Positions 36,901-61,379 of a stretch of DNA of 64,000 nt are shown in pieces (position 1 is the stretch's first letter; every line of letters begins with the position of its first letter). The translations under genes and the position numbers were made by a program. Origin of the DNA: Narcine bancroftii (taxonomy: Eukaryota); contig NC_091476.1 of assembly GCF_036971445.1 (NCBI RefSeq), positions 149,420,001 to 149,484,000 of the forward strand. The letters run 5' to 3'. The notes below the pieces were generated by a model. It did no database searches. It was given only the letters and a program-made list of their open reading frames with translations, and was not told the DNA's origin.

Positions 36901-37019
36901 AAACAGCACCTATTAGCCTGAATATGCCTGGGATTTTCTGATCTCAGAAGCTAAGCAGGCACAGGAATGGTCAGTACTTGGAGGGGAGACCACCTAGGAA
37001 CACCAGGTGCTGTAGTTTT
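36901..37019 (+). pseudogene. 5S rRNA-derived sequence (pseudogene or head of a SINE3, tail to ~37116)
   Basis: CTGATCTCAGAAGCTAAGCAGG..TGGTCAGTACTTGGAGGGGAGACCACCTAGGAACACCAGGTGCTGTAG aligns with vertebrate 5S rRNA including box A, IE and box C; many CpG-type substitutions. Confidence 0.8.
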
Positions 37020-39542: not shown

Positions 39543-39935
39543 TTATATGGCGAGCTCTCCACTGGCCACCGTGACAGAGGTGCACCAAAGAAGAGGTACA
39601 AGGACTGCCTAAAGAAATCTCTTGGTGCCTGCCACATTGACCACCGCCAGTGGGCTGATCTCGCCTCAAACCGTGCATCTTGGCGCCTCACAGTTCGGCG
39701 GGCAGCAACCTCCTTTGAAGAAGACCGCAGAGCCCACCTCACTGACAGAAGACAAAGGAGGAAAAACCCAAAACCCAACTCCAACCCACCAATTTTCCCC
39801 TGCAACCGCTGCAACCGTGTCTGCCTGTCCCGCATCGGACTTGTCAGCCACAAACGAGCCTGCAGCTGACGTGGACATTTACCCCCTCCATAAATCTTCG
39901 TCCGCGAAGCCAAGCCAAAGAAGAAAGAAGAAGAC
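39543..39935 (+). mobile_element. RTE-clade LINE, 5'-truncated young copy
   Basis: Near-identical to 16529-16920; intact reading frame and GAA-type tail. Confidence 0.85.
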
Positions 39936-40209: not shown

Positions 40210-40346
40210 CCTTATAAGGGAGGCTATGCGCACAAGGTTAGATTATGCCTGTTCCACCTTTATTATCCCTGGCCAATCAGTTTCCCTTGTTATTTGCTTT
40301 GTGGGAAATGCTGGCTTCAGCCCACAACCAGTAGAACCTGATTGGG
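40210..40346 (+). promoter_or_regulatory. Putative promoter of Rho-like gene 1: CArG box and two CCAAT boxes
   Basis: CCTTATAAGG (40210-40219) is a perfect CC(A/T)6GG; GGCCAATCAG at 40271; CTGATTGG at ~40338. Confidence 0.45.
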
Positions 40347-40561
40347 AGGTCAACATTCCAACTCACCTCCTAAAACACTAGCAGCTGTGCCCGATTGTGA
40401 TACTTTGAACACTGCAGCAAAAGCAAGGAATAAATCACCTTGACGGGCAATGTTTTTGCTCCTGCACAATGAGACGTCTTCCTGACCAACAATTCCTCTC
40501 GTGGGCACTCAAGCTCCTCAGTATTTAGGAAAGGAAGAAGGACAGCCTTTTCAAACCAACA

Positions 40562-41146
40562 ATGAGTTTGAGAAGGAAACTGGTGATCGTTGGAGATGGG
40601 GGTTGTGGTAAGACCAGCCTGCTGTTTGTATTAAGCCGTGACGAGTTCCCTGAAGGTTACGTTCCTACCATCTTTGACACATACGTGGCAGATATTGTGG
40701 TGAATGAGAAGCGGGTGGAGCTGGCATTGTGGGATACTGCGGGGCAGGAGGACTACGACCGTCTGCGGCCCCTCTCCTACCCCGACACCCACATCATCCT
40801 GGTCTGCTTCTCGGTCGACAGCCCCGACTCCCTGTGGAATATCCCAGAGAAGTGGATGCCTGAGGTCAGGCACTTCTGTCCTGGGGTACCCGTGGTGTTG
40901 GTGGGCAACAAAAAGGACCTGCGGAGTGATGAGAGGATCAAGCGAGAGCTGGCGCGGAGCAAGAAGGAGCCAGTGAGGTGGGAGGATGGCCACACCGTGG
41001 CGGAGAAGATAGGTGCCTATGCCTACCTGGAATGCTCAGCCAAGACGAAGGAAGGTGTCTGGGAGGTGTTCGAAACGGCCACACGGGCCACTTTGAATCG
41101 CACGGAATCAAGGTGCTTCAACGGCGCTTGTTGTACAATGATGTAG
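40562..41146 (+). CDS. Intronless RhoB-like small GTPase, copy 1 (194 aa, CAAX = CTMM)
   Basis: Complete ORF with G1 GDGGCGKT, G3 [21 protein letters not shown]4 NKKD, G5 ECSAK and the Rho insert. RhoB-type residues ([24 protein letters not shown]). Single exon with a Cys-rich tail, like RHOB. Confidence 0.92.
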
Positions 41147-43576
41147 CGGGGCTGCAGATGGCACTGATCAAGAGGACAAAATGTTTAAAGCATCAGAGAA
41201 TGGAGGAGATGGGAACAGAGGGGAAGGATATGAATTTGAAAATAATTTGCAATCAAGTACAAGGATAAAAATATCAACCATGCTTCAGTGGGCAAAATTG
41301 TAGGTTCAAGAGATTTGAGGTCAAAATCCAGGCCGATTCAGCAATGAGGGTGCCCCGCATGTCTGAGTATTTTCTGCCAGATGAGATAATAAACCAAAGC
41401 TACATCCTGTGGGGTGGATTTCCAACTATTTCAAGGAGCAAGGCCGTTCTCTACATGACTCTCTCTTGAACAGTGTTTCGTCCCAGACAACATTACAAAA
41501 GTAAAATACATTATCTGGTCATTTATTTCAGTTTGTCTGTGGGAACTAGGAATGATAATATGGCATCCTGTTTCGTCTACTATATCAGTAACAGCACTTT
41601 AGCTTGATTCGATTGGCTGTAAAGCACTGGACATCTTGAGATCATATAAACGCAAATCTTCCTTTACATTTCAGCAAATGTTTCAAGTGGCTTAAAATAA
41701 TATCAAAGAGGGTTTGTATGATATCAGATTATCTTATAATCTTATCGTTCAATTGATAAAATAATGTACACCTATGTAAAGATGATTAAATTTTCTTAAA
41801 GCGTTAGGCCATGGGTAAAGGGCTATATTTTTGTGGTTTAATAATTTCCTTGCCTTTATACTTTCTATTTAATTAAAGTGTGAGAGGTTGAAAATGTACT
41901 TTGCAGTGTCTTGTCAAGCATGTGTAGTCTTGAATTTAAAGGGTATGGGAAAGTTGAAACAATTGAATCTCTTGTCATCACAAACTCTTTTTGACAGTAA
42001 ATTACAATAGATTGCATCCAATTATGCAATGGGGAGAAAGCCTTCAGCCCAGCTCTCCCCTTCTGCTTGCGTTTGACCCATATCCCACTTACTCACGGAC
42101 CTGTCCAATATAACTGTACCCACCTCCACCACTTCCTCTGAAGTGTGTGTGAAAAGTTGCCCCTTTTGTCTCCTTTAAATCTTTCCCTTTTCACCTTAAA
42201 TCTCATTTTAGAATGACATGAGAGGGCATTGATTCTGGGGGAAAATAAATATTCTCCTTATCTTACCCCCTCATAATTTTATAAACCTCTGTAAAGTCTC
42301 CCCTCAGTCTCTTGCACTCCAGAAAAAACAAAGCGAAGCCTAACCAATCTATTTTTTATCTCAAAGTCTTGCAAATTGCCTTGTGATGTTTTACAAAGGG
42401 TTATTCAAAAACTTTTACATCTTTGTAGGGGGGGGGGGAGGGGGGCTGAAGAAAACAGTAAGATTTCAGTGAATTAAAGGTCAGTGGAAAAGTGGGAAGA
42501 TTCAAGATTCTTTTATCGTCATATACTAAAACAGAAAATGTAATATTACACAAAATTCCCTTTAGTTTGCAGCATTGCAAGGGATTCCTTACAGTCAGAG
42601 ATTCCTTACAGTCAGAGAAAGAAGCAAGAGAGTCCCTTCAGAGTCCATGGATTTGTCTCCAGTGCACCGCGCCCGCAGCCTCTGCAGCTGCACAGACTCC
42701 TGTTCAAACTATAGGCAACCCGAGCTCAAGATCCAAACCTCCGACATGATCAGGAAGTCTGCAGTGACCAAGGCCCTTTGGGAGCCCTTCCTGCCCTCAG
42801 CACCCTGTTGATCCCGGTTCCGATACCTGGTTCCTATGAGCACTGATATTTTACACATAGTAAAGTATTTTACAATTGTTCGAATCTGGCACCGTCTGCA
42901 AGGTGTTTGTATGTTTTGCTCATGACTTTTTCACCAAGTTTCCTCCTACCCTCCAGAAACATACGGGGATTGCAGGTTAATCGGTGAATTCAGGGGGGAG
43001 GGGGGCACAGGCTTGTGGGCTAAATGGGCCTGTTACTGTGCTGTCAAAATTAAAAAAAAATGAGCAGGTGCTGTCAGATTCACCCACGTAATGATACCAA
43101 TCATTTCCTCCGGTAAAAATCCTTGCAATTGTGTAGTTGCAATACTATGAAAAATGTGAGAAAATAAAAGGCATTGAAAATGGGATAGAAGAAAAGGCTG
43201 GAAGTTGCAGGAAATAAGAAAACAGGAGAGAAAGAGAAGAAAAGTGGGCAACTTGGGCCTTGCTTTAACATTTCATCTGAAAGCTCTGTATCATAATATC
43301 AGACTGGATACAATGCTTAGTTTTCTGGAGCACCAGGAGGGAGGGTGTTACCCACTGAGACATGGACTATATCTGTATACAAGCTAGCAGAGTGGTCATG
43401 TTTAGCCCAATTTCCCATTCACACTTGACAAAAGCTTTGCAAAGCGTGCCCACGTATTACGTTTTTTCAGAGCTGCCTCAGATTCAGTGACATAAGAAAG
43501 TGTATTATATCAACATGTGACTTATGCAAGGCCAAAGACCTCAGCATCTCTCAACATGCAGACTTTATTTTGATAT

Positions 43577-44340
43577 TCTTTGGCTTGGCTTCGCGGACGA
43601 AGATTTATGGAGGGGTAAATGTCCACGTCAGCTGCAGGCTCGTTTGTGGCTGACAAGTCCGATGCGGGACAGGCAGACACGGTTGCAGCGGTTGCAAGGG
43701 AAAATTGGTTGGTTGGGGTTGGGTTTTTCCTCCTTTGTCTTTTGTCAGTGAGGTGGGCTCTGCAGTCTTCTTCAAAGGAGGTTGCTGCCCGCCGAACTGT
43801 GAGGCGCCAAGATGCACGGTTTGAGGCGAGATCAGCCCACTGGCGGTGGTCAATGTGGCAGGCACCAAGAGATTTCTTTAGGCAGTCCTTGTACCTCTTC
43901 TTTGGTGCACCTCTGTCACGGTGGCCAGTGGAGAGCTCGCCATATAACACGATCTTGGGGAGGCGATGGTCCTCCATTCTGGAGACGTGACCCACCCAGC
44001 GCAGCTGGATCTTCAACAGCGTGGATTCGATGCTGTCGGCCTCTGCCATCTCAAGTACTTCAATGTTAGGGATGAAGTCGCTCCAATGAATGTTGAGGAT
44101 GGAGCGGAGACAACGCTGGTGGAAGCGTTCTAGGAGCCGTAGGTGATGCCGGTAGAGGACCCATGATTCGGAGCCGAACAGGAGTGTGGGTATGACAACG
44201 GCTCTGTATACGCTTATCTTTGTGAGGTTTTTCAGTTGGTTGTTTTTCCAGACTCTTTTGTGTAGTCTTCCAAAGGCGCTATTTGCCTTGGCGAGTCTGT
44301 TGTCTATCTCGTTGTCGATCCTTGCATCCGATGAAATGGT
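43577..44340 (-). mobile_element. RTE-clade LINE, longer 5'-truncated young copy
   Basis: ORF ...LLKIQLRWVGHVSRMEDHRLPKIVLYGELSTG...; same 3' end as the other two copies; CpG-rich; small deletion in the PNPN region. Confidence 0.85.
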
Positions 44341-44559
44341 AAGACATTACACATCACAAACCTCAAGAAGTATAAACCAGAACAGACAGCCTCTTAAAAA
44401 AGGAAAAGGAAATGAGCTCATAGGAAATGATGTAATAGAGAAAGCATTGTTTCAACATTAAAAGCACATTTGTTCCCATGACTGACATTGACTTAAAATT
44501 TTTTTTTTGAGTTTTATCAGAAAAACAAACCACAAAAGCAGTAAATCAATTGCAATGAA

Positions 44560-45990
44560 ACCTTTGCAGATTCACAAATGATAACATATAGTACAGTAGC
44601 GATACGACTTAATTCTAAATCTAATGAGTGGTAATACATACAATATTATAAGAGATAAGTAAGAAAAAATGAAAAGAAGAAAGAAAAAAATTCAAACCCA
44701 CAGCAATCATGTTTAAAATCCATATTGTATGTAGTGTTAAATCCAAACAAGCAGTCTCAGGGGATCCAAACAAGCACGCCTAGTGACATCCATCATCATA
44801 CCTCATTAGTCAAATTATGGAAGTGAGCTATAAACGGGCCCCAAGTCTTATCAAAAAAATCTTGCTTTTGTGACATGATGCCTAATTTTCTCCAGATTTA
44901 AAAAGGACGTACTATCTAATACCATTGATTATGTATAGGTGAGAACTCATCTTTCCATTTTAACAGAATTGCTTTTCTTGCAAATAAACTGGAGAATGCT
45001 ATAACCTGTCTGATTAAAAGATGAAATAATATTTATATCTTTAGAAAAACCAAATAGTGCAATTAAAGTGATCCTAAATATGGTTGAAAAAGTTCTAAAA
45101 AGGTCAGTCAAATATTTTTGCAAATTTGGGGCAAGTCCAAAACATATGTAACAAAGAGGCATCGAATATTTTACATTTGTCACAAAGTGAACTACTATCA
45201 GTTATCAGAGTAAATTCAAGCAAGTTTGACTTTGGATAAATGTACACGATGTAGCATTTTGAATTAAATAAGACTATGCCCAGTGCACAATGATGAATTG
45301 TAAACAAGGCCCAAAATTGAAGTACATTCTCCCATTCAGTTTTAATTCCACTTAAAGAAATTGCTTTCATATTCAATAGTTTATAATATAAAGCAGATGT
45401 CATGCTTTTATGAGTAAATTGTAACTCGAATAGTTCATTGATAAAATTTGGGTCAGGAAGAGTAGGAGATGTTAAAAGTTTAGAGCGAATTTGAATTTGA
45501 TAGTATCTGAAATAATATCATCCCCAATTGTTGAAGAGATATAAAATGTTGTATAAAAAGATCTTTAAAAGTCTTTATACCTAAAAAATTCCATTCTTGA
45601 AAACCAGCATCTAAAATAGCTGGTTGAAATAAATAATTAGATATTATAGGTCTTGTAACTATAAATACTGTAAGTCTGAAAAATTTTCTGAATTGGTTCC
45701 AGATCTTCAATCTATGTGCCATTATTAAGTTCTTTGTCAAATTTTGAATAGTGATAGGGGTAAAGATGACCCCAATACCACCCATAGTCAGGTACTTCTG
45801 AGGGACTTCAACTCCATCTCAATCCAATTAGGATATTCATCTGTCTTTTCATAGTTGCAACAAAAAAATAACATATTTTTTATGTTTATAGCCTAATAGT
45901 AAAAACGGAAATTAAGTAAGGCTAATCCCCCATTATTTCTAGTGTTCTGAAGATATTTTTATTCAATCTATTTTTAAAGCTATAAATACT
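44560..45990 (-). mobile_element. Degenerate L1-clade LINE ORF2 3' region
   Basis: CDKCKIFDASLLHMFWTCPK zinc knuckle, LKIWNQFRKFF, W..LGIKTFKDLF. Confidence 0.7.
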
Positions 45991-46234
45991 AAAAAAAATA
46001 CACAAATAATGGTAGCACATTTATAGTTTATAAGTATTGATTTTGTGAAAATTTGCAACACAGCTGTTTCAATTTTTTACCTTTATTAACTTGGTTTCCG
46101 CCTTCCCCCACAGATAAGAAGTCTGGCTGGTTCTTTCACTACTCCTCTCCAGCTCTTATTCTTCTCAAGCAAAGGGTCTTTAAATTACGTCACTACATTG
46201 GCCTCCATCGTGGAACACTATAACAGAGTCAAGA

Positions 46235-46850
46235 GTAAAACATGAAAGTCTGCAGACACCATAGTTGAATTAAAAACACAATCCTGGAGAAACTTAGCAG
46301 GTTAAATGGTCTACTTTATATAGCAAAGATAAAGATACATAACCAATGTTTTGGGCTTGAGCGCTTCATTAAGGGATGAGCAAAATGGAGTCAGGCACCT
46401 GAACAAAATGTTGGGGGGGGGGGCGCGGGAGGGGAGGGTGGAAGAGGCTGGGGGAGGAGCACAGTTCCAAAGGCAGGAGGTAATAGGTAGATAAATGATG
46501 GAAAGGGAATCTCTAGGCATTCTCCAACTGGATGGTATTGACATTGACTTCTCCAGTTTCTGATATTCTCCCTCCCTCATCTTTCCCTCTAGCTCTCCAC
46601 ACCCTTCCCTCTCCATTCACAGAGTCATCCCTCCTCCTCCTGCTTGTTGGTGTGCCCTCTCTCCTTTCTCCACTAATTACTCCTGCCTTTGGGCCTATGC
46701 CCCACCTTCCAACCATTTTGTTTGGGCTTCAACTGACATTTTTTCATACCTTGATGAAGGACTCAAGCCCGAAATGGTAATGTATTTTTATCTTTGCTAC
46801 ATAATGTACATTGTTTAACCAGTTGAGTTTCTCCAGCATTGTGTTTTTAT
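46235..46850. mobile_element. Inverted pair of Penelope-like termini (minus 46235-46510, plus 46515-46850)
   Basis: CTGGAGAAACT..TAGCAAAGATAAA..GGGCTTGAG is mirrored by CTCAAGCCC..TTTATCTTTGCTA..GAGTTTCTCCAG; GILQLDGIDIDFSSF is the PLE ORF end. Confidence 0.6.
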
Positions 46851-47672
46851 TATAACAGAAACTCCATTTGCACTTTTAAACATTTCTAAAACCAAATTAC
46901 CCCTGGTACTTTGACCAAATATTTCAGGCTCAATCAATTTCACTGAAAGAAATAATCTTTTCTGGGTAGTTTCATATTTGTGAGACTACAAATATTAAAT
47001 GTTGTTGCATATAAAATCTTTAAAATTATTAATATCTAAAAAATTCTATACCAAACATCTTCATTTGTTGTAAAATGCATTGGAATGACTGAAAAACATC
47101 CATGATCCAAAAATTGCACTTGGCACAAGGGTCACTTGGCTGAAATCAAGACTAGAACCCCTAGGTGACAAGCAAGAGGTATTCTGCTCCATGTAACAAC
47201 ATTCTCTGAGAGTCTAGTCACTTAAACTGTTGGTCTGTAACTATCCCAATGGGAACTATGCAGGTATTCAGTAAGGTTAGCAGTCCAGGTGGATTAGATT
47301 CCCAACCTCTGATAAAATAATTAATAAACTCAATTAGAGCACTGGAAGGAGTGCTGTTATTGGCCAGAGTTCTACTGGAGATCTGAAAGGGGTGTTGTTA
47401 TTGGCCAGAGATTAGCTAGAAGGGGAGCTATTCTTGGCCAAGCATCCTGCATGGGAAGAATTGGACTTGCTCCTGACACAGCTCACCATTGAGTGATTGC
47501 TAACTGAGGATGTGGGAGCAGGATTGGCCTTCCTTGGTGACATAATCCAATCTCATGCCACATTCCTGCTCTGTAGAAAAGATAAAGGTTTGGTTTAAGA
47601 TTGTGAAGTGAACAAAGAACTTCATAGACCATGATACACTTTTGAAGTGTCATCTTCCTTATCATTTAAGGT

Positions 47673-48048
47673 CAGTGGTTCTCAACCTTTTTCTTTCCAC
47701 TCACATACCACTTTAAGTATTCCCTATGCCATAGGTGTTCTGTGATTAGTAGGGGATTGCTTAAAGTGGTATGTGGGTGGAAAGAAAAAGGTTTGAAAAC
47801 CACTGTTCTAATTGTATCTAATTCACTTGTTATGTGCATGGTTTCATAGCTCCAAAGGAAATTGGCCAATGACAATTTTTCTCAAGCAAAATATTTCAGT
47901 AACAATTGGGTCTAGAGTAGTGATTCTCAACCTTCCTTTCCCACTCACAAACCACCTTAAGCAATCCCTTACTAATCACAGAACACTGTTGGTCTAGGGA
48001 TTACTTAAAGTCATATGTGAGTGGAAAGATAAAGGTTGAGAACCACTG
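47673..48048. mobile_element. Composite hAT/Charlie-like MITE (two palindromic units flanking a ~110-bp core)
   Basis: Outer TIRs CAGTGGTTCTCAACCTT...AAGGTTGAGAACCACTG; inverted copy at 57358-57717. Confidence 0.75.
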
Positions 48049-48050
48049 TA

Positions 48051-48259
48051 AGCCATCCATCCTCAACCTTTTTCAGCTATGGCCCCTCTAGGACTCAAAG
48101 TTTGTGGGGCCCCTTCCCAGTGAATCAATCAAGTTTTAGTTTCTTCTGTATTTCTCTCCTACCAACTGCGGAACAAAACATAAAAATATTTATGTTACGT
48201 GAGGTGAAAAGAAAACAAGGCTTTTACTTTAATGTGCTGTGGCCCCAGGTGAATGGCTG
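48051..48259. mobile_element. hAT-type MITE (same family as 10906-11117)
   Basis: Internal AAAGTTT.TGGGGCCCCTTCCC..TGAA.CAATCAAGTTT homology; ends GAATGGCTG. Confidence 0.55.
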
Positions 48260-49079
48260 ATGTAAGGAACCTGAGTCCTGCAAACTCCCGTAAACAGTGA
48301 TAAAGTGATAATTATGATTAGTTTGGTGATGAGGGATAAACTTTTGCCTTGGAGAGCTGACCTGCTCATCCCTGACTTCCCAGAATAGGATCCTTTGTGT
48401 CCACCTGGGCACCTCTTTGGTGATAGCCCCCTCCAAAACACTTTGCAGCGTTCCCTTAGCATTTCACCATTGGTTTCAGTTTCCGCAGTGTTTTGAACCT
48501 ATGACCTCTTGCTTGATATAAGGTGTCTTCATGAGATAGTCCCATTCGCCTACATTTGCCCATGTCCATCTAAACCTTTCCTATCCATGAACTTGACCAA
48601 ATGTCATTTCAACTTTACAATTGTACCAACCTCAACCACTTCCTCTGGCTTCCCGTTCCATATATGCCCTTTCAATCTTTCCCCTCTCACCTTAAACCCA
48701 TGTGCTCTAGTTCTAGATTCCCCTACCCTGGATAAAAGACTGTGACTATTTACCTTATCTATATCCCTTATAATTTTTAAAACCGTTTCATCTTTGCTCG
48801 ACAATAAACAGAGCGAGCCTAGCCAGTTGCTCCTCATAATTCCAGCCTGCTAGTCCCAACGACATCCTTGTGAACCTCTCTGCACCCTCTCCAATTTCAT
48901 CACATCCTTCCTACAGCATAGTCTCCAGAGCGGCACACAATGTGCCAGGTGGATTCTCACCAGCCACAATATAATGTCCCAACATGATTAATACATTATA
49001 TTTTTATATTCAAACACATTATTTAACTGCTGAAGTTCCATTTGATCTGAAAGGTAATATCAGTAGAAAGGGGAGGCCT

Positions 49080-49315
49080 GGTTTGTCTAATAGTTAGCAA
49101 AATGTTGCTCTAGTAAACTGGGGTTCGAATCCACCGCTGTATGTAAGGAGTTTGTACAGTACGTTCCCCCCCCCCCCCCGTGTCTGTGTGGGTTTTCTCC
49201 ACATTCTCTGGTTTCCTCCCATCCTTCAAAATGTACCGGGGTTGGAGGTTAATTGGGTGTCATTGGGTAGCACTGACTCGTGGCTGAAAGGGCTTGTAAC
49301 AGTGCTGTATATTGA
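49080..49315 (+). mobile_element. V-SINE-type SINE
   Basis: GGGTTCGAATCC B-box; GTAAGGAGTTTGTAC..GTGTCTGTGTGGGTTTTCTCC..TGGTTTCCTCCCA. Confidence 0.65.
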
Positions 49316-49579
49316 AAAAAATATATATTTAAAATTTGAATAAATTTACATTATGTTAGGTTGTGGTGCAGGATTGTTATGAACAGGAGGATCTTCAGGA
49401 AAGGGTAACCATTTCACGGTATGAACCCACACATGAATAATTGGTTTGCAAGAGGATGTTTTCACTTCTGCCTGCAAGACAATAGATCACACAGCAAAGC
49501 CCACTGTTACAGCATTCTTACTGTCGTCCAGGTTATCCAAAAACAAAATACTATACACTGATGAAAGAAAGGTCTCAGA

Positions 49580-49960
49580 TTGCTGCATCACTCTCTGGTA
49601 TGGAGGTGCCAATGCACGGGACATAAAAAGACTACAAAGTGTTGGGAACTTGCCAGCACCATCATGGGCATCAGACTTCACTCCATCGAGAACATCTACA
49701 AGAGCTGGTGTCTTAAGAAAGCAGCCACTATCTGCAAGGACCTCACCACCCAGACCATGCCCTCTTCTACAAGAGTCTGAAGATGAACATTCAACGCTAC
49801 AAAAATAGACAATGAATCACAGAAACTACTCATTTTTTCTTCTACACTAATTTATTTATTTTTAATAATGTAATTTATAGGAATATTTGCACCTGTAATG
49901 CTGCCACAAAACAATGAATTTCGTGACATGCTTATGACAATAAATTCTGATTCTGATTGT
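49580..49960 (+). mobile_element. Rex1/Babar LINE 3' fragment
   Basis: CCITLWYGGANA.D.KRLQ and LHSIENIYKSWCLKKAATICKD; tail ACAATAAATTCTGATTCTGA. Confidence 0.6.
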
Positions 49961-50064
49961 AATTCTAAGTCAGGATATTGTTGCCTGGGGATTCTCCCAT
50001 GCTCCTCTATCTTCTATTAGAATAGTATTTTCACTCACATTTATCTCTACTTTTAAATTTAAAT

Positions 50065-50303
50065 GTTGACCTACGGCATGGTTACAGGCCATTCCAGCCC
50101 ACGAGTCCATGCAGCAAAATTCACACCTAATTAACCTACATCCCCAGTACGTTTTGAACAGTGGAAGGAAACCAGAAATCCCATGGAAAACCCACGCAAA
50201 CATGGGGAGAACATGCCAACTCCTTACAGACAGCGCAAGATTTGAACCCTGGTCCCGATTGTTGGCACTGTAAAGGTGAAGAACTAACTGCTACGCTAAC
50301 CAG
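50065..50303 (-). mobile_element. V-SINE-type SINE
   Basis: GGAAGGAAACCAG..GGAAAACCCACGCA..GGGGAGAAC..AACTCCTTACAGACAG; B-box complement GATTTGAACC. Confidence 0.65.
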
Positions 50304-52370
50304 CATTTTCTATTTTTTGTTCGCTGTTTGTCTCAAGGCCGAGATTATAATGCCAGCCATCACTGCTTTGTTCTGCATCATTGCCCTACTCTGAATATCT
50401 TCCTGACTCATCAGAAAGTTAATAGTCTACTAGCAAGAAAGCAGCAAACTCAACAAGAACAATTGGGATAATTGATAACAAATCTGTTATTGTCACTTCT
50501 GCTCTGGTGTTGACTATGGCCTTGAAGCAAATTTCCTCCCCAAAGTGCTGAAGGAACGAGGTCACATGTTTTTTTTCTCCAGACAATCCAGTAGATCTCA
50601 CAATTTTGTTTTCAATTACTTGAGTTTAACCTCCTCGGTTACAGTTGAGGGATTCAAACTCATGTCTCTTCTTGTTCAGGCCTTTGGATGTCTAAAGTAG
50701 ATAAATCCTGAATGACCATATTCTCTGCATTTCCTTCTGTGTCCCCTGTGATAGGAGAGAACTGTGATCGTGATCCCCACCACAGCAGCATTATGACTGG
50801 TGATGTCTTTCAGGCAGTGGTGGGTGGGGAGGGGGGGTGGGGGGGGCGGGGGGGGGTGTGGTTGGTCGGTTGGTCACTGAAAACTTTTTCACCTTCACAG
50901 CAATCAAAGCAGCCACTGCAAACTTATTGCAACCCATTGGAGCACATTCACCTTTCCAGGTCAGTAGTGGGTTATTTTCCCAGTGCCTATCCCACCTCTC
51001 ATCTCTTCCACCAATTCTACCTTGCCATAGAACCGCCACCTAGTTCTGGCTAACCAGAACTACACATCCAGAATAGAACAAGAAAAACTACCAGTGGGCA
51101 AAGTCATGCCTGAGTGAATCCACGTCAGGTTCTAAAGGTCAAAGATATCTCAAGTAGTAGGTAATAATTAACAGTTTCAATTTAGCCTTTATCAGGAGTC
51201 AGGAAATCTGAACAATAAATGAGGCACATTAACACAATCTAAAATAATTGCTTTAATTTCAATCAGCATTGCATTGTCAAGAAAATGGATCAATGTAACC
51301 TGGTTCCTCTCTCAATCCTCAAGAGCAGGCCAGGATGTGGGCTTCATTCTGCGATCACATTGTGGGGCCTGTTTTACTGGCAGGAAGAATAAAAGAAAGA
51401 AGGGGGCATGAACTGTGAACTGAGGAACCCTGTTACCAATTCAAAGCAAACAGAAAAGGTGTCAGGGCAGTTGGTGACGGAGAATGAATGTTATCTTTGC
51501 CATGGACATCCACATCCTGAAAAGAAATTTGAAAACAGACAAGCCAGTCATATTATTTTGGATGAATTTAACAATTTCTTCAAGCTTAGACCTGAATTAT
51601 TCTTGGTTGGTCCTTTGCCATCATTAGTCTCACCATTTCTGCCTTCTCTTCTGTTCAGCTACTTGCCCCTGCTTGTTTGAGTGAAGCAACATTTTGTGAA
51701 CAGTTCCCAATAGATCTTCTCTTTTAAGACCATTAGATATAGGAACAGAAACAGGCCATTCAGCCCATTGAATCTGTCCTGCCATTTAATCATCAGCTGA
51801 TCCATTTTCCCATTCTGCCCAGCTTTCTCCCCCTAATTGTTAACCCTGACTAATCAAGAACCTATCAATCTCTGCCTTAAATACACCCAATGACGTGGCC
51901 TCCACAAACACATGGCATCAAATTCCACAGATTTACCATCCTCTGAAGAAATTCTTATGCAGTTCTCTTCTCAGCAGGCACCATTCAATTTTGAAGTTGT
52001 GCCCTCTTGTCCTGGGCTCTCCCATCATGGGAAACAACCTTTCTACCTACTCTGTCCACACCTTTCAACATTCAACATGTTTCAATGTGATCCAACCTCA
52101 TTCTCCTAAATTCCAATGAGTACTGGCTAAGAGCTGTCAGATGCCCCTCATATGATAACCCGTTCATTTCTAGAATCATTCTAGTGAACCTCCTTTGAAC
52201 CCTCTCCAAGGACAGTACACCGCTTCTTAAACGAGGAGCTCAAAATTGCTCACAATACTCTGTGAGGTCTCACCAGTGCAAACATACATATTATAACCAT
52301 CTTATGACATTACTATATATATAAAAAAATAACAATAATAGTGGACGAAAAGTAAGGCCATGTCTTTAGT

Positions 52371-52562
52371 TCATTTCTCATTCAGGAATCTGATGGCAGC
52401 AGAGAAGAAGCTGTCCTTGTGCCACTGAGTGCTCGTCTTGAGGCTCCTGTACCCTTTTCCTGATGGTAGCAGAGTGAAGAGGGCATGACCTGGGTGGTGA
52501 GGGTCCTTGAGAATAGAGGCTGCTTTCTTAAGACGCTGCCTCTTGTAGATGTCCTCAATGAC
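52371..52562 (-). mobile_element. Rex1/Babar LINE 3' fragment (adjacent CR1-type 3' fragment ~51725-52280)
   Basis: IEDIYKRQRLKKAASILKDPHHPGHALFTLLPSGKGYRSLKT..KDSFFSAAIRFLN. Confidence 0.65.
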
Positions 52563-54107
52563 TGATGCCCTTTTGAAGAAAGTGGGAACCTCAGACTGCA
52601 GCCATGAGAGGTTGAAAAGCAATGAGAGCCAATCAGCTGGTGAGGTTTCCTTCCTTCATTCATTGAACATGGGTGAGGTTTAAGACTGGCTCATCATTAG
52701 CTGGCCCTTGAGAAGGGTGGTAATGAGCCATCTCTTGTCAATGACCACAGTCTTTCTGGCAAACTCCCATTTTGGAAGGGATTGGAAGACAGAGACAATC
52801 TATATATTGCACTGACTGGTTTCACTTGGGCAGTTAGATACTGTGGCTGGTGCAAGGTTCAAGAATTCCAATGGGAGTTTCGGATATGCCATGCAATAGG
52901 ATACACAAAACACCCTATTCACCAGGCCTCTTTTTGTGGGTTACAAATATCCAAGATATACAAGTCAATTGATGCATGTCCCTCCTATCATTCACTGTGC
53001 TATCTAATCCTTATGCACTATTTACAATGCAACAGTTCCATGCTTTATTTCCATATAGACAAGATACCACAAAGGGTTTTGTTACATATGGAAATTGAGC
53101 AGGCTACAACCACAAAGCAAAACTAAGTTACAACAGCAATCCCATGTACCAGTTGAAACACTAAGGAAATATCATTTCTGTTTATTCAGAGCCTGATCTT
53201 TTGTGATTGTGACACCCTTCCAGTAAAGTGATCAGATCAGGGGGTAGCTCTTTGAGGTTACAAGTTAAAATGCACACAAATAACTGAGATTTGTTACTAA
53301 TGTCACTGCATTGCAAATTTTGATAGAAAGCTGATGTTGTTTACTTCATAGGAAAGCTCTGATCTTTCTAAATGGAGGGTGGTTCCGTTCAGGATAATGA
53401 GGTCAGTATGTCTCTATCCTGCAGGTCCCTTCAGCATACTTCATCCTCTTTGTTGCTATAGTTAGCAAAGTCATCTTTTCACCAGCTGTCTTGGGATTTT
53501 AGATACTCAGTGACCACTACCTTTTCAGAAGTGGGATTGGGACGCAGAAGCCAAACGATCTGACAAACTGTATTCACCAATTAGTGGTGGCATTGGAGTG
53601 GCTCGGTGAGGGAGGGAATGGAACTTGTAACTCAATTTTAGTGGACTCAAGAGGAGGAGAAAGCAAAATGTTTAATTTGATCCAGTTGGCTGTTTGAGGC
53701 TGTAGACATCAGGGATCGGCTGTGCTTGTGAAGCCCCATCTGACATTCAGTTACATTCAGTTTCACTTCAACCATGCTGACACAGAAAGATACCTGAACT
53801 TACTTGGCAACTTTAAAGGTGATAGGAAATTGATACATCTTTGAAAAGGAACAGCATCCTGGGGTTTCTAAAGATAGGGAAATGGTAGAAAAAAAACCAA
53901 ATGAGATTGGCTTGTCCTTCGTTAATCAGTGTTTTGACCTCAGTTCTGGAACTTAACTAGGGGAATTATAGTGAAACCCTTCAGTAGAAAGTTATGAAGT
54001 ATGGTATTGGGAATGATGGGGATGTGATGTGCGGAGGAGGAAGACACAAAAGTCTGCAGACACCATGGATGAAGTAAAAACACCATGCTGGAGAAACTCA
54101 GCAGGTT

Positions 54108-54472
54108 TCAGCATTTTAGATTGAGGTCCAGACTTTCAACAGCAGGAAATGTTAGAGATAACCTACCAGTCTGTTCACAGAAGAATCTTTCTCATTGTAC
54201 AAGCTATTTTGTGACAAATGAACTCATGATTTGATTGCAGCAGTGTGTAAAGTTGCAAACTGGAATGAAAGCAGAAAACAATAGAACAATTTAGCAAGTC
54301 AAGTAGCATCTGGGTGAAGAAATGTAGAGTTAACATTTCAGGTGGCCCATGAACCTGGCTCACAATATGGCTGGTGGATGCGGCGATCATGAGGGCCCCG
54401 CAGGGACTAATGGCCGTTGACCTCCTGCATGGTGGGAAACAGTGTGTAATGGCAGGAATGCTGGCACTGTGA
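54108..54472. repeat. Composite local duplication: inverted copy of 55503-55738 joined to a direct copy of 55973-56102
   Basis: Direct sequence comparison; only a few substitutions in each segment. Confidence 0.9.
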
Positions 54473-57357
54473 GAGCACTAAGAGAGCAAAGATAAAGATA
54501 CCTATCCAATGTTTTGAAATGTAGGCAGACGCCTAATCAAAACCTTGGAGGGGGAGGGGCAGGAGGAGGAACACAATCCCACAGGCAGGAGGCATGAGGT
54601 GGGTTAGGAATGTGTGATTGTAGAATCTGTGAATTTTCACACAAGGAAAGAAATGATCAGGGGAAGAGGTGGTCCCACTCATGGCAATAATCACTTGCTA
54701 CAGTGACATTGGTCCAATGATCAATATAAATGGACCACACACAATAATGCCTCTGGAAGTGCCATCTGGGAACATGTGTCCAGATCTATGGCATTGTACC
54801 TTGAGCCGACATTCTGAGCCACAGTACGAGAGCAGACAGGATACTGAGCCATGTCAGGGAGGGAAGATGGTATGAGTAATGCAGTACTCCTTGGCCCTCA
54901 GTGAAGGAGGAGGTCTGCAGCGATGAAGAGAACCAGTCTGGCAACCAATGACAGTGGCACTCAGCATCCGGGTCAGCAGCTGCATGCAAGACCTGCTGAA
55001 CTTGGATGCTTGCCATGCCCAGTGCTGACTGTGAATGAGTAGGTTACATACAACGATCAAGGAGGCCAAGAAATACTTTGAAAGCGAAACAGAGAAAAAA
55101 GTTGAATGATGCATCTTCCTGTTGCGGTCGGATACTGCCTGTTTGTTTCCTTGAGCAGTTGGCAGCTTTTGCTCTTTCCAAGCTTCACACCATTCACTGA
55201 ACACTTCCAGCTGTAGAGAATCTTCAGGAACAGCCACAGAGCAACAGGAGCCTCAAATCAGCAGGAAAACATAAAGGCAGAGGCTTATATGATCAGTGGA
55301 TTCAGTTCTTTCTTTCTAAATTTCTACTTTGCAATGAAATTTAAAAAAAATATAAACACTCAGTAGAACAGGCAGCATCTATGGAAAAAAACAGAGTCCC
55401 TTTTTTAAGCCAAAGACCCTTTCCCACCACAAAATGAATTAACTTCTGAGTTTTTCTACCCCTGATTTATATTTGTTAGGGGTAATGTAGGAAAGGTCTA
55501 AGACCTGAAATGTTAACTCTACATTTCTTCACCCAGATGCTACTTGACTTGCTAAATTGTTCTATTGTTTTCTGCTTTCATTCCAGTTTGCAACTTTACA
55601 CACTGCTGCAATCAAATCATGAGTTCATTTGTCACAAAATAGCTTGTACAGTGAGAAAGATTCTTCTGTGAACAGACTGGTAGGTTATCTCTAACATTTC
55701 CTGCTGTTGAAATTCTGGACCTCAACCTAAAATGCTGATAGATGCTGCCTGAATCGCTGAGTGTGTTTTTTTGCTCTGAATGTCAGCACCCACAGTCTCT
55801 TCTGTCTCCTGCAGGTTCTCCCTCCTTTCACGAACCATCCCAAGATGGAAGAGTATACCAATCCTTCATTGTTGCTGGGTCTAAACTTAGAATTTCCTCC
55901 CCAATAGCACAGAGGACTGTCGGCAGTTTGACAAGATAGCTCACCTGAGGGAAAACAAGAGTGAACATGTAATGGCCCGTGAACCTGGCTCACAATATGG
56001 CCGGTGGATGCGGCGATCGTGAGGGCCCTGCAGGGACTAATGGCCGTTGACCTCCTGCATGGTGGGAAACAGTGTGTAATGGCAGGAATGCTGGCACTGT
56101 GATGATGTCATCAGAGGCAGGGAGTGAAACAATACATTTTTAGCAATGCACATTTTTTTGTTGTAGATGGTGATATCTACATTTGTCTAGATCTGTGCAT
56201 CTGTATGCATTTACGTGGTACTTTTAAGTCAGTAAACAGCCTGAGGAAGATTGACAGGGATGTTATCAAAGAGCATTTCACTACAAAACAGCCAAAACGA
56301 AATTATAGGGAAAGAGAGGTGGACACTATGGGGAGAGAATTCCTGAGCGTAGGGTCTTGCATGCTGAGGTCACAACCGCCAATGATGTCATAGAGTTTTA
56401 CATCACGGAAATAGGCCCTTTGTCCCAACTTATCTATGCTGACCTAGTTGTCCACCCAACCAAGTTCTGTTTGCCGGCATTTGGCCCAGGTACCTATCTC
56501 CTATCCGTTTACCTTTCTAAATATGTTTTAAAAGTTTAATTGTCCCCTCTCTACCACTTCCACTAGTAGCTCGTAACAAATACCCACCACCCTCTGTGTG
56601 AAAAATTGTCTCTCTGCCCCCTTTAAATCCATCCCCTCTCACCTTCAATCCAAGGCCTCTAGTTTTAGACTCCCCTACCTTGGGGAATGAGAGTATGATT
56701 ATATATCTTATCTCTGCTCTTCATAAATTTGGCAATTATGTTCAAAGATGAGTGATGGATATTAAGGTTGCAGAAGTGAAAACAATAGGGGTAAGAGCAC
56801 AGACGGAATCTAAAGTAATGAGATCATCTCTTGTTACTTGTTAAAAAATAATCTTAATTTTAAATTGAATGCAAACAGATAAGAAATCAAATTTGCCTCC
56901 TTGTCAGGATCTTCAACAGATTGAAGTGTTAGGATGGTACAAGTGTGACCCCTTGTGGTGAACAATTAATATCAATCTAAAAAAACCCATGATGGTTGTA
57001 GGAATGGAGCCATAGATTGTAAAATGATGGCAGGTCTTTTACAGCACAGATTAGTTGAGAAAAGAGCAGGGGATTGGAATTGATAGCACTGGGATTCCCT
57101 TTGAAAGAGCTTGTGCTGGCGGATCAGCAGAGTTGTCTCCTTCTGCACTGCGTTATTCTATAATTCCCCTCTGTATTTATCTTTGAGGCCCCAGCAGTGG
57201 CCACTTCTCATGTGAAGGGTGAAAAGAACAGATTTTGATCTGGGACCACATGGTCACAGAGTCATAGGGTTTAACAGAATGGAAACAGGCTCTTCAGCCC
57301 AGCCAGCAGAACGTGCTGACCACCCAAGTGAGTCCCATTTTTTTGCATTCTTCTTTC

Positions 57358-57717
57358 CAGTGGTTTTCAAACTGCCCCCTAAACTCATATTCCACCTATG
57401 CCATAAGTGCTCTGTGATTAGTAAGGGATTGGTTAAGGTATTATGTGAGTGGGAAGGGAAGATTGAGAACCACTGCTCTAGACCAATTGTTACTGAAATA
57501 TTTCGCTTAAGAAAAATTGATATTGGCCTATTTCCTTTGGAGTTATGAAACCGTGCACATAATGAGTTAATTAGGGACAATTAAAAGAGTGGTTTTCAAA
57601 CTTTTTCTTTCCAGTCACATTCCACCTTAATCAATCGCTTACTAATTACAGAGCATTTATGGCAGAGGGATTGCTTAAGGTGGAATGTGAGTTTAGGGGT
57701 CAGTTTGAAAACCACTG
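57358..57717. mobile_element. Composite hAT/Charlie-like MITE, second copy (opposite orientation to 47673-48048)
   Basis: TIRs CAGTGGTTTTCAAACTG...CAGTTTGAAAACCACTG; the core is the reverse complement of ~47806-47916; CTCTAGAC/CTCTAAAC flanks resemble the Charlie target consensus. Confidence 0.75.
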
Positions 57718-59252
57718 CTCTAAACCTTTCCAATCCATGCACCTGTCCAAATATCTTTTAAAGTCTACAGTTGTACCCATCTCTATCAATTCCTCTGCCA
57801 CATAACCACCACCTTTCAAATCTTTCCCCTCTATAATACATGGGCCTTATGATTTTCTAAATCTCCATAATGTCCCCCTTTACCTCCTATGCTTTGAGAA
57901 GAGACCCAGCCTATCTAGCCTCTCTGCCAGACCCAGTAACATTCATGTGTATCTATTCTGCACCCTTTCCAGCTTAATGATGCACTTCCAATATCTGGCC
58001 AACCAGTGCCCCCCACAATGTGTTATGCTACTCAATGGTAGACAGTTGCTGAGTGCCACCAATATTATTTCAGGGTTTGGGAAGTGTGACTCTTCTGCCT
58101 ACTCTCCCCATTGGCTCTGCCTGTGGGTTCCTGATCTGTACCTCTCTTTGAGAAGGGGTAAGTATTGGCAAAAAGGATTCAGATGCCAATTGATTCATGA
58201 GATCCTCATTCTGACCATAGGCTGTCAGTTGGCCTCTCCATCCCCATTCTACGATGGAGTACATGAAACAAAAACCTTGTATTTCTAACACATCCGTAGA
58301 GATGAGGAGAAATTTCTTCAGCCAGAAAGTGGTGAATCTGTGGAATTCGTTGCCAAGACAGTGGTATATTTAAAGTGAATTTGCTGGGTTCTTGATAAGT
58401 AAGGGTGTCAAAGCTCATGGAGATTGAATCAAGAGCAAAAATACATCAACCATGATTAAAATGGCAGAGCAGTCTTGATGTGCCACATGGCCTAATTGGA
58501 CTCCTCTGTCTTATGGATTTATTTTCATGTCCCATACAGGATGTTCCACAGAAGTTATGCCATAGAACATTAAAACACAGAAAGAGGCCCTTTGGCCCTT
58601 CTAGTCTGTGCCGATCCATTTTTTATGTCTCATCCCACTGACCTGCACGCAGTCCATAGCCGTCCATATCTCTCCCATCCATGTACCTGTCCAAATTCTT
58701 CTTAAATGTTAAAATTAAGCCCACATTCACCACTTCAGCTGGCAGCTCCTTCCACACTCTCACCACTCTGTGTGAAGAAGTTACCCCTAAACTTTACCTG
58801 TTCACCCTTAACCCATGCCAATGAACCTTAATAGACGTGCTGACGCCACTGTGGTATAGGAGTGTGGGCAGAGAACCTTGCCACAGGCAGGAGAAGTTTT
58901 AACCAGTGGAGAAAGGGTTAAAAGTCCTTTTTTTTTTCAACTCAGCCTGCTGTTCAATTAAGCAACAGACTGGCTATAAGACTGGAGCAATCAGATCCAA
59001 TAGGAAACTGGATGAACGCTGTCCTTGGGGGATGGCCTGAATGTCAGAAGTGTGAGGAAAGATGAGTAGGAGACACATTAATTTCACACTCAGCTGAACA
59101 GTCTTCTTCTGGTATTGTCTGTCACTACGGTGTAGCCTGGGAGAAATTCCAGTGGAAGAAGGAAAACAATACAGGGTGAAACCTACGGCTGGTTTTGAAT
59201 TCCAGTTCCTGGTCTGGGCGAGGATGTGGAAGAAGTCTCAGTGCTTGAAAGT

Positions 59253-59321
59253 GGGCCAATCAAATGGCACGGAGCAGGGTTGAGTCATAGAGCTAGGACA
59301 ATCTGATTGGGCAGCCAATCC
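59253..59321 (+). promoter_or_regulatory. CCAAT-box cluster upstream of Rho-like gene 2
   Basis: GGGCCAATCA (~59253), CTGATTGG (~59303) and AGCCAATC (~59313) within 180 bp of the ATG. Confidence 0.5.
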
Positions 59322-59431
59322 AGCTCTGATCCACAAAAACTCCCCTCTCGCTACGAGAACTGGTAATACACCTGACTGAAGGAGTGGTGTGTGTTGATCC
59401 TGAATCAGAGCAAACCCTTCCTGAAGCAGGC

Positions 59432-60016
59432 ATGGCAACTGTGAGGAGGAAGCTGGTGGTGGTTGGAGATGGGGGCTGCGGCAAGACCAGCCTGCTCTTT
59501 GTATTGAGCCGGGATGAGTTCCCTGAAGATTATGTCCCCACTGTCTTTGAGACCTACGTGGCAGACATTGAGGTGAACCAGAAACAGGTGGAGCTGGCTC
59601 TGTGGGACACAGCGGGGCAGGAGGACTACGATCGCCTGCGACCCCTCTCCTACCCTGATACCCACGTCATCCTGGTCTGCTTCTCGGTCGGCAGCCCTGA
59701 CTCCCTGTGGAACATTCCAGAGAAGTGGATGCCTGAGGTCAGGCACTTCTGCCCTGGGGTACCTGTGGTGTTGGTGGGCAACAAGAAGGACCTGAGGAGC
59801 GATGAGAGGACCAGGCGGGAGCTGGCATGGAGCAAGAAGGAGCCGGTGAGGTGGGAGGAGGGCCAAGCCATGGCGGAGAAGATCGGCGCCCACGCCTACC
59901 TGGAATGTTCAGCCAAGACGAAGGAGGGTGTCTGGGAGGTGTTCGAGATGGCCACACGGGCCACTTTGAAGGAGACCCAGATGGGATGCTTTGACTGCCA
60001 GTGCATCTTGCTGTAA
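59432..60016 (+). CDS. Intronless RhoB-like small GTPase, copy 2 (194 aa, CAAX = CILL)
   Basis: ATG at 59432 in strong Kozak context (GGCATGG). All G boxes intact. Tail [10 protein letters not shown] resembles RhoB GCINCCKVL. The upstream GTG start in the ORF track is unlikely to be used. Confidence 0.92.
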
Positions 60017-61379
60017 CAATGTACTTGAGCAGACAAAGGGAACTCGTGTTTACTGAAGACTGGTGATCTGGTGCAGGGGCAAATGACTGCATCAGACAGA
60101 GGACAAGCAGCATCAGATAGAGGTGACAATATTTGTTGAAAATACTATCAAGGGATGTGTAAAAACTTGGATTGTCAGTCTGTGAGAAAGAGAATGAATT
60201 TTAAATGTTTTCCAGCCTGTTAAAACTGATGTGTTTAACAGCTCTTGATTTCTTTAGTCAAATTCTAATGAACAAACAAAATAACTTTCTGTGTTGTGTA
60301 CAGCCGTTAATTAACCTAAATTGACCCTCTGGTCTCTCTAACATCAGAGGCTGAGCCTGTTTTCTCAGGTGGATTGTTTCTCAACACATTCCTTCTCAGG
60401 ACGGTGGAGGCACCCAGCAAGTCCGGCAGCATCAGGGAGGTGGATACAGAATTCGATGAGCCTTCCTCAGAACCAACAATGATTTCCCTCCACAGATGCT
60501 GCCCTGGCTGAACAGTTCCAGAATCATCTTTTTGAAAATCGCTAGAAATCTGCAGGTGCAGGAAACATGTGATTCAAACTCAGAAAATGCTGGAAGGTCC
60601 AGGTCGTAAAAGATTGTCATTTGTATGAAGGACATTAGCATGGATTGGGATCATGGAAGAGGTGGGTTGAAGGGCTTTACCAATTTATAATGCCATGACT
60701 CATTGAATGCGTCAGGATGCAATAGTATGTGTAGGCATCAAAGTTGGTGTTTAATTTGGGACTTGGAGGCAGGAAGGATGATGCTGTGTGGACCTGCTGC
60801 ATGAGGTTGGTTGAGGTGTGGGGGGGGGGGGTAGTGGTGGCTAGGCATAAGTACCTATCTTGCTAAGTATGTACCCCCCCCCCCCCCCACAGAGGTGGTA
60901 GCTCTATTTGGCTTCTGTTTTCAGGGTTGGGGAAAGAGATGGGAGAAAAGGAACAAACCCTAGTGTCATCCCCAAATAACCATCCTCTTTTCTGTGCATT
61001 TACTTTGAACTGGGGTTAGCTATAGCCTCTGAAGTTAGAGCCCACAGACTCTTTTAGTCATATAGAACATGTGGCTGTGAAGTATGTTTGCATGATTAGA
61101 GTTCAGGGAGACTGTAGACAGAAAAAAATCCATCCAGAACTAGCATTAATTAAGTATAAACCATTCTGGAGTACATTAATGAAGGGAACTGTATCTTTAT
61201 TTTTGCTGTATAAAGTACACTGTTTCACCTGCTGAGTTTCTCCAGTGTTGTCATTTTACTTCTCCATGGTGTCTGCAAACTTTCATGTTTTACCTTTAGC
61301 ACCTAGTTACTTGTCTGAAATGTATTAGATTCCTTGTATTCCTAGGACGGGATCCCAGTGTGTACAGGGAAGAAAACCT

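What the first reader, a model, noticed from the sequence alone, without database searches (positions are those of the whole stretch)
40562..60016. Tandem RhoB-like pair with a shared core but opposite predicted prenylation (CTMM vs CILL)
Seen: two intact intronless Rho genes ~19 kb apart in the same orientation. They are highly similar across the GTPase domain and diverge abruptly after ...ATRATL (nucleotide similarity ends at CCACTTTGAA). Copy 1 ends [16 protein letters not shown]; copy 2 ends [15 protein letters not shown]. Established: CAAX X=Met favours farnesyltransferase and X=Leu favours GGTase-I. Mammalian RhoB (CKVL) is unusual in being either farnesylated or geranylgeranylated, with different localisation (plasma membrane vs late endosome), and is palmitoylated on upstream Cys. 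Inference: the two lipid forms of RhoB are hard-wired into two genes here. Both keep upstream palmitoylatable cysteines and have no polybasic tail.
Basis: partly seen in the sequence, partly recalled or inferred. Interest (0 to 1): 0.82.

Follow-up and report, generated by a model that had tools for sequence, protein, structure and literature searches.

The report
Ancient shark RhoB-sister gene pair
Sharks, rays and chimaeras carry an extra tandem pair of RhoB-like signalling switches whose cores keep overwriting each other, while a short partner-binding patch, and less strictly the lipid-anchor tail, stay different between the two copies.

Summary
Both genes are real, intact and under purifying selection. 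They are not RhoB itself. They lie beside PUM1, whereas RHOB lies beside PUM2, and rays and sharks have a separate canonical RhoB. The best reading is a RhoB sister gene from vertebrate genome duplication, tandemly duplicated before chimaeras and sharks split, and found here only in cartilaginous fish.

In 17 species pairs the core is homogenised by gene conversion (97% identical within species, 87% between). The Met/Leu CaaX contrast holds in only 10 of 17 pairs; 4 pairs share the same X. Yeast screens support a farnesyl bias for CTMM and a geranylgeranyl bias for CILL, but not exclusivity.

D40, and the loss of E47, resemble Rac/Cdc42. Different partner specificity is inferred, not shown.

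The parts
40562..41146 (+). Copy A (PUM1-proximal) RhoB-like GTPase CDS, 194 aa; switch I type G33/D40/V47 (RhoA numbering); CaaX CTMM
40655..40714 (+). Copy A divergent island, codons 33-52 (switch I and beta2-beta3)
41096..41146 (+). Copy A hypervariable tail (16 aa); upstream Cys at -6 and -1 from the CaaX Cys, a spacing seen in no other of 34 family tails
59432..60016 (+). Copy B (distal) RhoB-like GTPase CDS, 194 aa; switch I type D33/E40/E47; CaaX CILL
59528..59587 (+). Copy B divergent island, codons 33-52
59969..60016 (+). Copy B hypervariable tail (15 aa); upstream Cys at -5 and -2, the family-typical spacing
1771..2232 (-). First coding exon of PUM1, head-to-head with the Rho pair; the synteny marker
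   Evidence: best hits all named pumilio homolog 1; 94% to Pristis; tblastn
40310..40379 (+). Weak 5' flank similarity to 59274-59341 around a shared reverse CCAAT-like word; possible remnant of the duplicated promoter
   Evidence: 1 of 300 mononucleotide shuffles reached the score; weak
41152..41271 (+). Weak 3' flank similarity to 60053-60165; possible remnant of the duplicated 3' UTR
   Evidence: 2 of 300 shuffles reached the score; weak

Best explanation
The two genes are a cartilaginous-fish lineage of RhoB-type GTPase. A single-exon RhoB ancestor sat next to the ancestral PUM gene. Vertebrate genome duplication gave RHOB beside PUM2 and a sister beside PUM1 (inferred from synteny and tree). 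The sister duplicated in tandem before chimaeras split from sharks and rays. Since then gene conversion has repeatedly homogenised the GTPase core (shown by comparison), but two patches usually stay copy-specific: switch I/beta2-beta3 and the C-terminal tail. Both proteins most likely work like RhoB: GTP switches held on endosomal or plasma membranes by a prenyl group plus one or two palmitates, without a polybasic tail (inferred). Copy B keeps the RhoA/B-type E40 and E47 and is mainly geranylgeranylated. Copy A has D40 and a hydrophobic 47, and so probably a different set of GEFs or effectors; in most sharks and rays it is also biased to farnesyl. The pair is kept mainly for the switch I difference; the prenyl difference is a secondary, dispensable tuning (inferred).
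For: Synteny: PUM1 exon in the window. PUM1 and a family gene share contig length (13 species) or adjacent accessions (Hypanus) in 14 of 14 species where both records could be compared. RHOB lies by PUM2, and PUM1/PUM2 mark paired paralogous regions (PMC1464127). Tree: family monophyletic 100/99 and family+RhoB 100/99 against RhoA/C and invertebrate Rho. Age and order: both types occur in Callorhinchus, and 5 of 5 fused gene models run A-type start to a distal L/I-ending tail. Conversion: residues 53-179 are 97.0% identical within species against 87.1-87.3% between species; the own paralog is among the nearest in 29 of 34 sequences. Island: positions 33 and 40 differ in 15 of 17 pairs, against at most 3 of 17 for any column in 53-179 and 5 of 17 in 5-32. 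Lineage-specific residues are shared by both copies at 27 and 29 and from 47-52 on. Silent differences in the window: 8 of 14 codons in 33-52 against 34 of 137 elsewhere, one-sided p=0.015. E40 is present in 72 of 74 matched named Rho proteins outside the family. RhoA E40 contacts a GEF (PMC4232260); Cdc42 has Asp38 (PMC8286826); RhoA E47/Rac M45 is one of five swaps that together gave IQGAP1 binding (PMC8625570). dN 0.047 against dS 0.489.
Against: The AU test did not reject family+RhoA/C (p=0.066), and RhoA and RhoC were one sequence each. With a fungal outgroup the family+RhoB node was weak (81/0). In the thinned tree the family nested beside acanthomorph RhoB (91/78). The switch I contrast at 33 and 40 has been overwritten in Hypanus and Rhinoraja. 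Silent divergence is also raised over 5-52 as a whole (17 of 41), so the peak may just be the 5' edge of conversion tracts. E to D is a conservative change. The 17 pairs are not phylogenetically independent, and in 4 of them one copy lies on a small unplaced contig. Synteny outside the window rests on contig lengths and accession order, not on DNA. No expression, lipid, localisation or binding data were obtained.
Confidence: 0.65

Rival explanations
1. One reading: the pair exists to separate a farnesylated (plasma membrane) from a geranylgeranylated (late endosome) RhoB form.
For: M/L in 10 of 17 pairs, spanning rays, Heterodontus, lamniform sharks and Pristiophorus. All 6 Met-ended motifs score 13.4-16.9 and all 12 L/I/V-ended motifs 0.8-5.9 on the yeast Ras-reporter score. 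The two pairs that lost the switch I contrast kept M/L. Distinct activities of farnesylated and geranylgeranylated RhoB are reported (PMC5997158).
Against: 7 of 17 pairs lack M/L, including the chimaera (I/L) and an M/M pair on one 84.5 Mb contig. Canonical RhoB is present separately. The two transferases overlap on Met- and Leu-ended motifs. PMC4160200 cites unpublished data that forcing either prenyl on the RhoB tail did not change lysosomal localisation. Tails lie at the edge of homology, where they can escape conversion without selection. The Ras score is a sum of class averages, so the Met effect is partly built in.
Confidence: 0.2
2. Dosage or expression duplicates: the copies are functionally equivalent (or differ only in where they are expressed), and the differences persist because diverged patches and gene ends resist conversion mechanically.
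For: Each difference has been erased somewhere (switch I in 2 of 17, X in 4 of 17). Flanks are almost unrelated, so regulation probably differs. Silent divergence rises towards the 5' end (pS 0.49 in 5-79 against 0.25 in 80-179, permutation p=0.009).
Against: G33/D40 are invariant in 17 of 17 A copies from chimaera to rays, and the island is flanked by converted residues only 4-7 codons away. No pair of 17 is homogenised in both patches, although only about 0.5 such pairs would be expected by chance, so this point is weak.
Confidence: 0.25
3. The genes are independent retrocopies, or derive from a RhoA/C or RhoB retrocopy that landed near PUM1 by chance in an early cartilaginous fish, rather than from genome duplication.
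For: Single-exon CDS; long stem branch (0.24-0.25); AU p=0.066; no bony-fish or tetrapod member among the best 120 hits of two searches.
Against: The position, head-to-head with PUM1, mirrors the RHOB-PUM2 linkage. RhoB-type residues E29, V86, V10 and R133 are shared. Faint similarity in both flanks favours DNA-level tandem duplication of the two copies.
Confidence: 0.12

Closest known systems
Vertebrate RhoB (RHOB, beside PUM2)
   Same: Single-exon CDS, two upstream Cys, no polybasic tail, residues E29/V86/V10/R133, tree position, neighbour is a PUM gene.
   Different: About 70% identical to shark and ray RhoB. Next to PUM1. Two copies. Usual Cys spacing -5/-2 rather than -4/-1. Family-wide S20, L25, non-Val 33, T41, G109, W141 and W168; G15 in most members.
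RhoA / RhoC
   Same: Top solved-structure hits, near-equal scores to RhoB; intact G boxes, switch II and insert helix.
   Different: No polybasic tail, palmitoylatable Cys present, single-exon CDS, tree groups it with RhoB.
Rac1/Cdc42 effector loop
   Same: Copy A has Asp at the position of Rac/Cdc42 D38 and Val/Ile/Met at the position of M45 in 16 of 17 A copies.
   Different: The rest is RhoA-like: it keeps K/R27, D28, E54 and D76, the other four IQGAP hotspot positions. Resemblance only.
Tandem paralogs under concerted evolution with a protected divergent island (general pattern, recalled; e.g. red/green opsins, RHD/RHCE)
   Same: Species-wise clustering of the core with trans-species copy-specific residues.
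   Different: Not found described for a Rho GTPase in my searches.

Membership tests
Rho-family small GTPase | G1-G5 motifs and Ras domain | tested here: met
Rho-family small GTPase | Rho insert helix and C-terminal CaaX | tested here: met
   gap-free alignment to RhoA 1-180; tails
Rho-family small GTPase | GTP binding, hydrolysis and cycling | not testable with these tools
   catalytic residues are present; no assay
RhoA/B/C subfamily | Closest solved relatives are RhoA/B/C | tested here: met
   E about 1e-93 to 1e-90 for RhoA/B/C against 1e-61 for Rac1
RhoB clade | Groups with RhoB to the exclusion of RhoA/C | tested here: inconclusive
   100/99 support, but AU p=0.066 for the alternative; weak with a fungal outgroup
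RhoB clade | Single coding exon | tested here: met
   RhoB single exon per PMC5997158
RhoB clade | Upstream Cys, non-polybasic tail | tested here: met
   34 of 34 tails have 1-2 upstream Cys and 0-3 Lys/Arg in 15 residues
RHOB ortholog | Locus beside PUM2/SDC1/HS1BP3 | tested here: not met
   neighbour is PUM1; canonical RhoB is a separate record in Amblyraja, Pristis and Pristiophorus
RHOB ortholog | Cys spacing -4/-1 of the RhoB lipidation motif | tested here: not met
   0 of 34 family tails; window copies are -6/-1 and -5/-2
Fixed farnesyl/geranylgeranyl gene pair | X=Met and X=Leu each conserved in orthologs | tested here: not met
   M/L in 10 of 17 pairs
Fixed farnesyl/geranylgeranyl gene pair | Different prenyl group on the two proteins in vivo | not testable with these tools
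   only yeast reporter scores
Concertedly evolving tandem pair | Paralogs cluster by species in the core while copy-specific sites persist across species | tested here: met
   (protein level; DNA available only for the window)
Genome-duplication ohnolog of RHOB | Remnant or ortholog at the PUM1 locus in bony vertebrates, or a pro-ortholog in cyclostomes | not testable with these tools
   no eukaryotic genome collection; none among the best 120 hits

The most novel reading that the evidence does not exclude
Cartilaginous fish retain a fourth RhoA/B/C-type gene lineage, lost in bony vertebrates, in which one tandem copy has acquired a partly Rac/Cdc42-like effector face (D40, hydrophobic 47, G33) usually coupled to a farnesyl-biased tail. 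Selection has defended that face against gene conversion since the chimaera-shark split, so the pair is a natural experiment in which a few residues on an otherwise identical GTPase redirect signalling to different partners and membranes. It would also date RhoB's retroposed origin to before the duplication that separated PUM1 from PUM2.
Probability: 0.25. Interest if true: 0.7.

Novelty: new variant of a known kind. Interest (0 to 1): 0.45.

Why it matters
It adds an apparently undescribed branch to the vertebrate RhoA/B/C set and suggests RhoB is older than the PUM1/PUM2 duplication. It also offers near-isogenic natural pairs (core up to 100% identical) that differ only in switch I, only in the tail, or in both. 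These allow a direct test of which residues set Rho partner choice and whether prenyl length matters for RhoB-type localisation. It does not show that RhoB's two lipid forms are encoded by two genes.

Tried and rejected
AlphaFold2 on the 34-sequence family alignment gave mean pLDDT 45; it was not used and no fold search was run.

Recent tandem duplication: rejected, because the flanks share no strong similarity and both types occur in the chimaera. Pseudogene or retro-debris: rejected (dN/dS about 0.1; orthologs in 22 named species). Independent duplications per lineage: rejected because A/B residues and order persist across species.

RhoD/RhoF affinity, suggested from memory by the G15/S20 P-loop: an N-terminal search listed RhoB/A/C first and no RhoD/F in the top 60. 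A real two-domain Rho fusion (320-328 aa database models): judged a probable annotation artefact joining tandem copies; not tested with reads.

The literature search for RhoA E40 effector mutants found 0 papers, so their effect on ROCK binding is recalled only and not used as evidence. PMC4919469, PMC6678527 and PMC9420404 (passages) gave nothing on the question. The motif tally matched 0 sequences through a pattern error and was redone.

The yeast GGTase-I score is noisy for this use: several Leu-ended motifs do not fall below 0.2 (CALL 1.10, CSLL 2.45, CLLL 0.71, CKVL 1.38). No complex prediction, atlas search or representative search was run.
Full report
Observation. The window holds two uninterrupted 194-codon Rho ORFs at 40562-41146 and 59432-60016, both on the + strand and 18.9 kb apart. 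Tails, CaaX boxes and upstream cysteines are as described. All G boxes are intact, and dN is 0.047 against dS 0.489 over residues 5-179, so both are under purifying selection. Flanks show no strong similarity, only faint patches that 1 and 2 of 300 shuffles matched. Residue numbers below follow RhoA, to which copy B aligns without gaps over 1-180.

What the genes are. The closest database proteins are from sharks, rays and the chimaera Callorhinchus (77-85% identity for the cluster representatives), followed by RhoB and invertebrate Rho at about 70-77%. The window copies fall among the rays in the core tree (97/94). The ORF at 1771-2232 on the minus strand is the first coding exon of PUM1. PUM1 and a family gene share a contig length in 13 species and have adjacent accessions in Hypanus: 14 of 14 species where both records could be compared. 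For the other 8 named species no comparable PUM1 record was listed. In human, mouse and chicken, RHOB lies beside PUM2, and PUM1/PUM2 mark paired paralogous regions (PMC1464127, passages). A canonical RhoB is a separate record in Amblyraja, Pristis and Pristiophorus.

In a 38-sequence tree (12 rows and the fungal outgroup removed from the 51) the family is one clade (100/99) and family plus RhoB is one clade (100/99). It shares RhoB-type E29, V86, V10 and R133. Against this: the AU test did not reject family plus RhoA/C (p=0.066), RhoA and RhoC were one sequence each, and with the fungal outgroup the node was weak (81/0). I infer a RhoB sister from genome duplication. No bony-vertebrate member appeared among the best 120 hits of two searches, each limited to 8000 candidates; that is weak evidence of loss. 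RhoB's origin by retroposition is stated in PMC3548309 and PMC5997158 (passages).

Age and concerted evolution. Seventeen species, the window included, gave both copies. Left out of the counts were two Scyliorhinus species (only B seen), four species known only from fused models, partial or chimeric Callorhinchus, Chiloscyllium and Rhincodon records, and three unnamed records. Copies were assigned by switch I type, and for Hypanus and Rhinoraja by N-terminus and tail. Both types exist in Callorhinchus, so the duplication predates the chimaera-elasmobranch split (over 400 million years, recalled). All 5 fused models begin with an A-type switch I and end in a distal-type tail, matching the window's order. 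In residues 53-179, paralogs of one species are 97.0% identical, against 87.1-87.3% between species, and the own paralog is among the nearest sequences in 29 of 34 cases. Lineage-specific changes, including a one-residue insertion in Rhinoraja, are shared by both copies. This is gene conversion. The window's pair (91%) is among the least recently converted.

The CaaX test. X is M/L in 10 of 17 pairs, I/L in Callorhinchus and Heptranchias, V/L in Mustelus, L/L in Stegostoma and Rhincodon, and M/M in two Chiloscyllium species. In Cetorhinus, Stegostoma, Rhincodon and C. plagiosum one copy lies on a small unplaced contig, but the C. punctatum M/M pair is on one 84.5 Mb contig with adjacent accessions. 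Among 27 named RhoB or RhoB-like proteins, 3 had aberrant ends; of the other 24, 13 end in L, 10 in M and 1 in I. So X is labile in this clade.

Prenyl bias. But GGTase-I accepts L/F/I/M/V. Met-ended motifs were alternately prenylated and Leu-ended ones were modified by human FTase in humanised yeast (PMC11152559, passages). All 18 motifs looked up exceed the FTase cut-off of 3. PMC4160200 (passages) cites unpublished data that prenyl length did not change lysosomal targeting of the RhoB tail, and says palmitate spacing matters; the family's spacing differs from RhoB's in 34 of 34 tails. The difference is a bias, not a hard-wired opposition.

The missed feature. Positions 33 and 40 differ in 15 of 17 pairs: A is G33/D40 in 17 of 17, and B is D or E33 with E40 in 15 of 17. 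Position 47 differs in 12 of 17. No column of 53-179 differs in more than 3 pairs. Converted residues approach within 4-7 codons on both sides (R27 in all rays, Q29 in Mobula, 47-52 in Pristiophorus and Cetorhinus). In the window, 8 of 14 same-residue codons in 33-52 differ silently against 34 of 137 elsewhere (p=0.015, one-sided), though 5-52 as a whole is also raised (17 of 41 against 25 of 110). Outside the family, 74 of 77 named Rho proteins matched the pattern: 72 have E40, 71 have E47 and 66 have V33.

What those residues do. E40 of RhoA contacts a GEF (PMC4232260, one passage). The equivalent residue in Cdc42 is Asp38 (PMC8286826, one passage). E47M is one of five RhoA-to-Rac1 swaps that together conferred IQGAP1 binding (PMC8625570, passages); copy A has only that one of the five. 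Hypanus and Rhinoraja lost the 33/40 contrast and kept M/L; the carpet sharks lost the X contrast and kept switch I. No pair lost both, but chance predicts only about 0.5 such pairs.

How it most likely works. Shown: sequence anatomy, locus, orthologs, conversion pattern. Inferred: both are active, prenylated and palmitoylated RhoB-like switches; B engages RhoA/B-type partners; A engages a shifted set; prenyl type modulates localisation in most lineages. Family-wide changes may alter regulation further: C20S (the redox-sensitive Cys of RhoA, recalled), N41T (the C3 exoenzyme site, recalled) and new tryptophans at 141 and 168. Expression was not tested.

Novelty. The proteins are in databases under automatic names (RhoB-like, ras-like RHO). 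Five searches of the held library (listings only) showed no paper on this pair. Subscription papers on Rho evolution (Boureux 2007, Fort's reviews; recalled, not seen) could cover it, and bioRxiv supplements were closed. Verdict: a real, apparently undescribed variant of a known kind, of moderate interest.

Noticed in passing
window 2258-2229 (-): An upstream ATG matching the tetrapod PUM1 start context (seen in P0194 and P0202) is out of frame here and opens a 9-codon uORF whose stop overlaps the main ATG (ATGA). All 7 chondrichthyan PUM1 proteins printed start at the downstream ATG.
   Followed up: partly
window 36902-37015 (+): Single 5S rRNA-like sequence, 44.3 bits against a gathering score of 38; probably a dispersed pseudogene or a 5S-derived repeat.
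   Followed up: no
window 16531-16928, 39543-39931, 43576-43955: Three copies of a ~390 bp repeat at 94-97% identity; two flank copy A in inverted orientation. Looks like a young LINE 3' fragment (recalled, untested).
   Followed up: no
window ~29500-30400 (+): Decayed retroelement pol fragments with an RT RNase H match (PF17917, E 2e-06) in a GC-rich block.
   Followed up: no
window 7611-7994: Two-copy 192 bp tandem repeat, 98% matches.
   Followed up: no
window 41114-41143 (+): Copy A's tail seems to have lost the family Cys at -2 and gained an adjacent Cys (-1) with a one-residue insertion; unique among 34 tails and convergent on RhoB's CC.
   Followed up: partly
P0049, P0078, P0088, P0089 (acanthomorph RhoB): These share T41, and mostly W168 and X=Met, with the family and grouped weakly with it in one tree (91/78) but not the other: convergence, long-branch attraction or hidden paralogy.
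   Followed up: partly
P0002-P0031, P0126, P0127, P0132, P0144: Many 306-340 aa double-Rho gene models in molluscs, corals, starfish, bichirs and teleosts suggest that tandem Rho pairs are common and often mis-joined in annotation.
   Followed up: no
P0046 (Mustelus copy A): G12S in the P-loop and several private changes; may be decaying.
   Followed up: no
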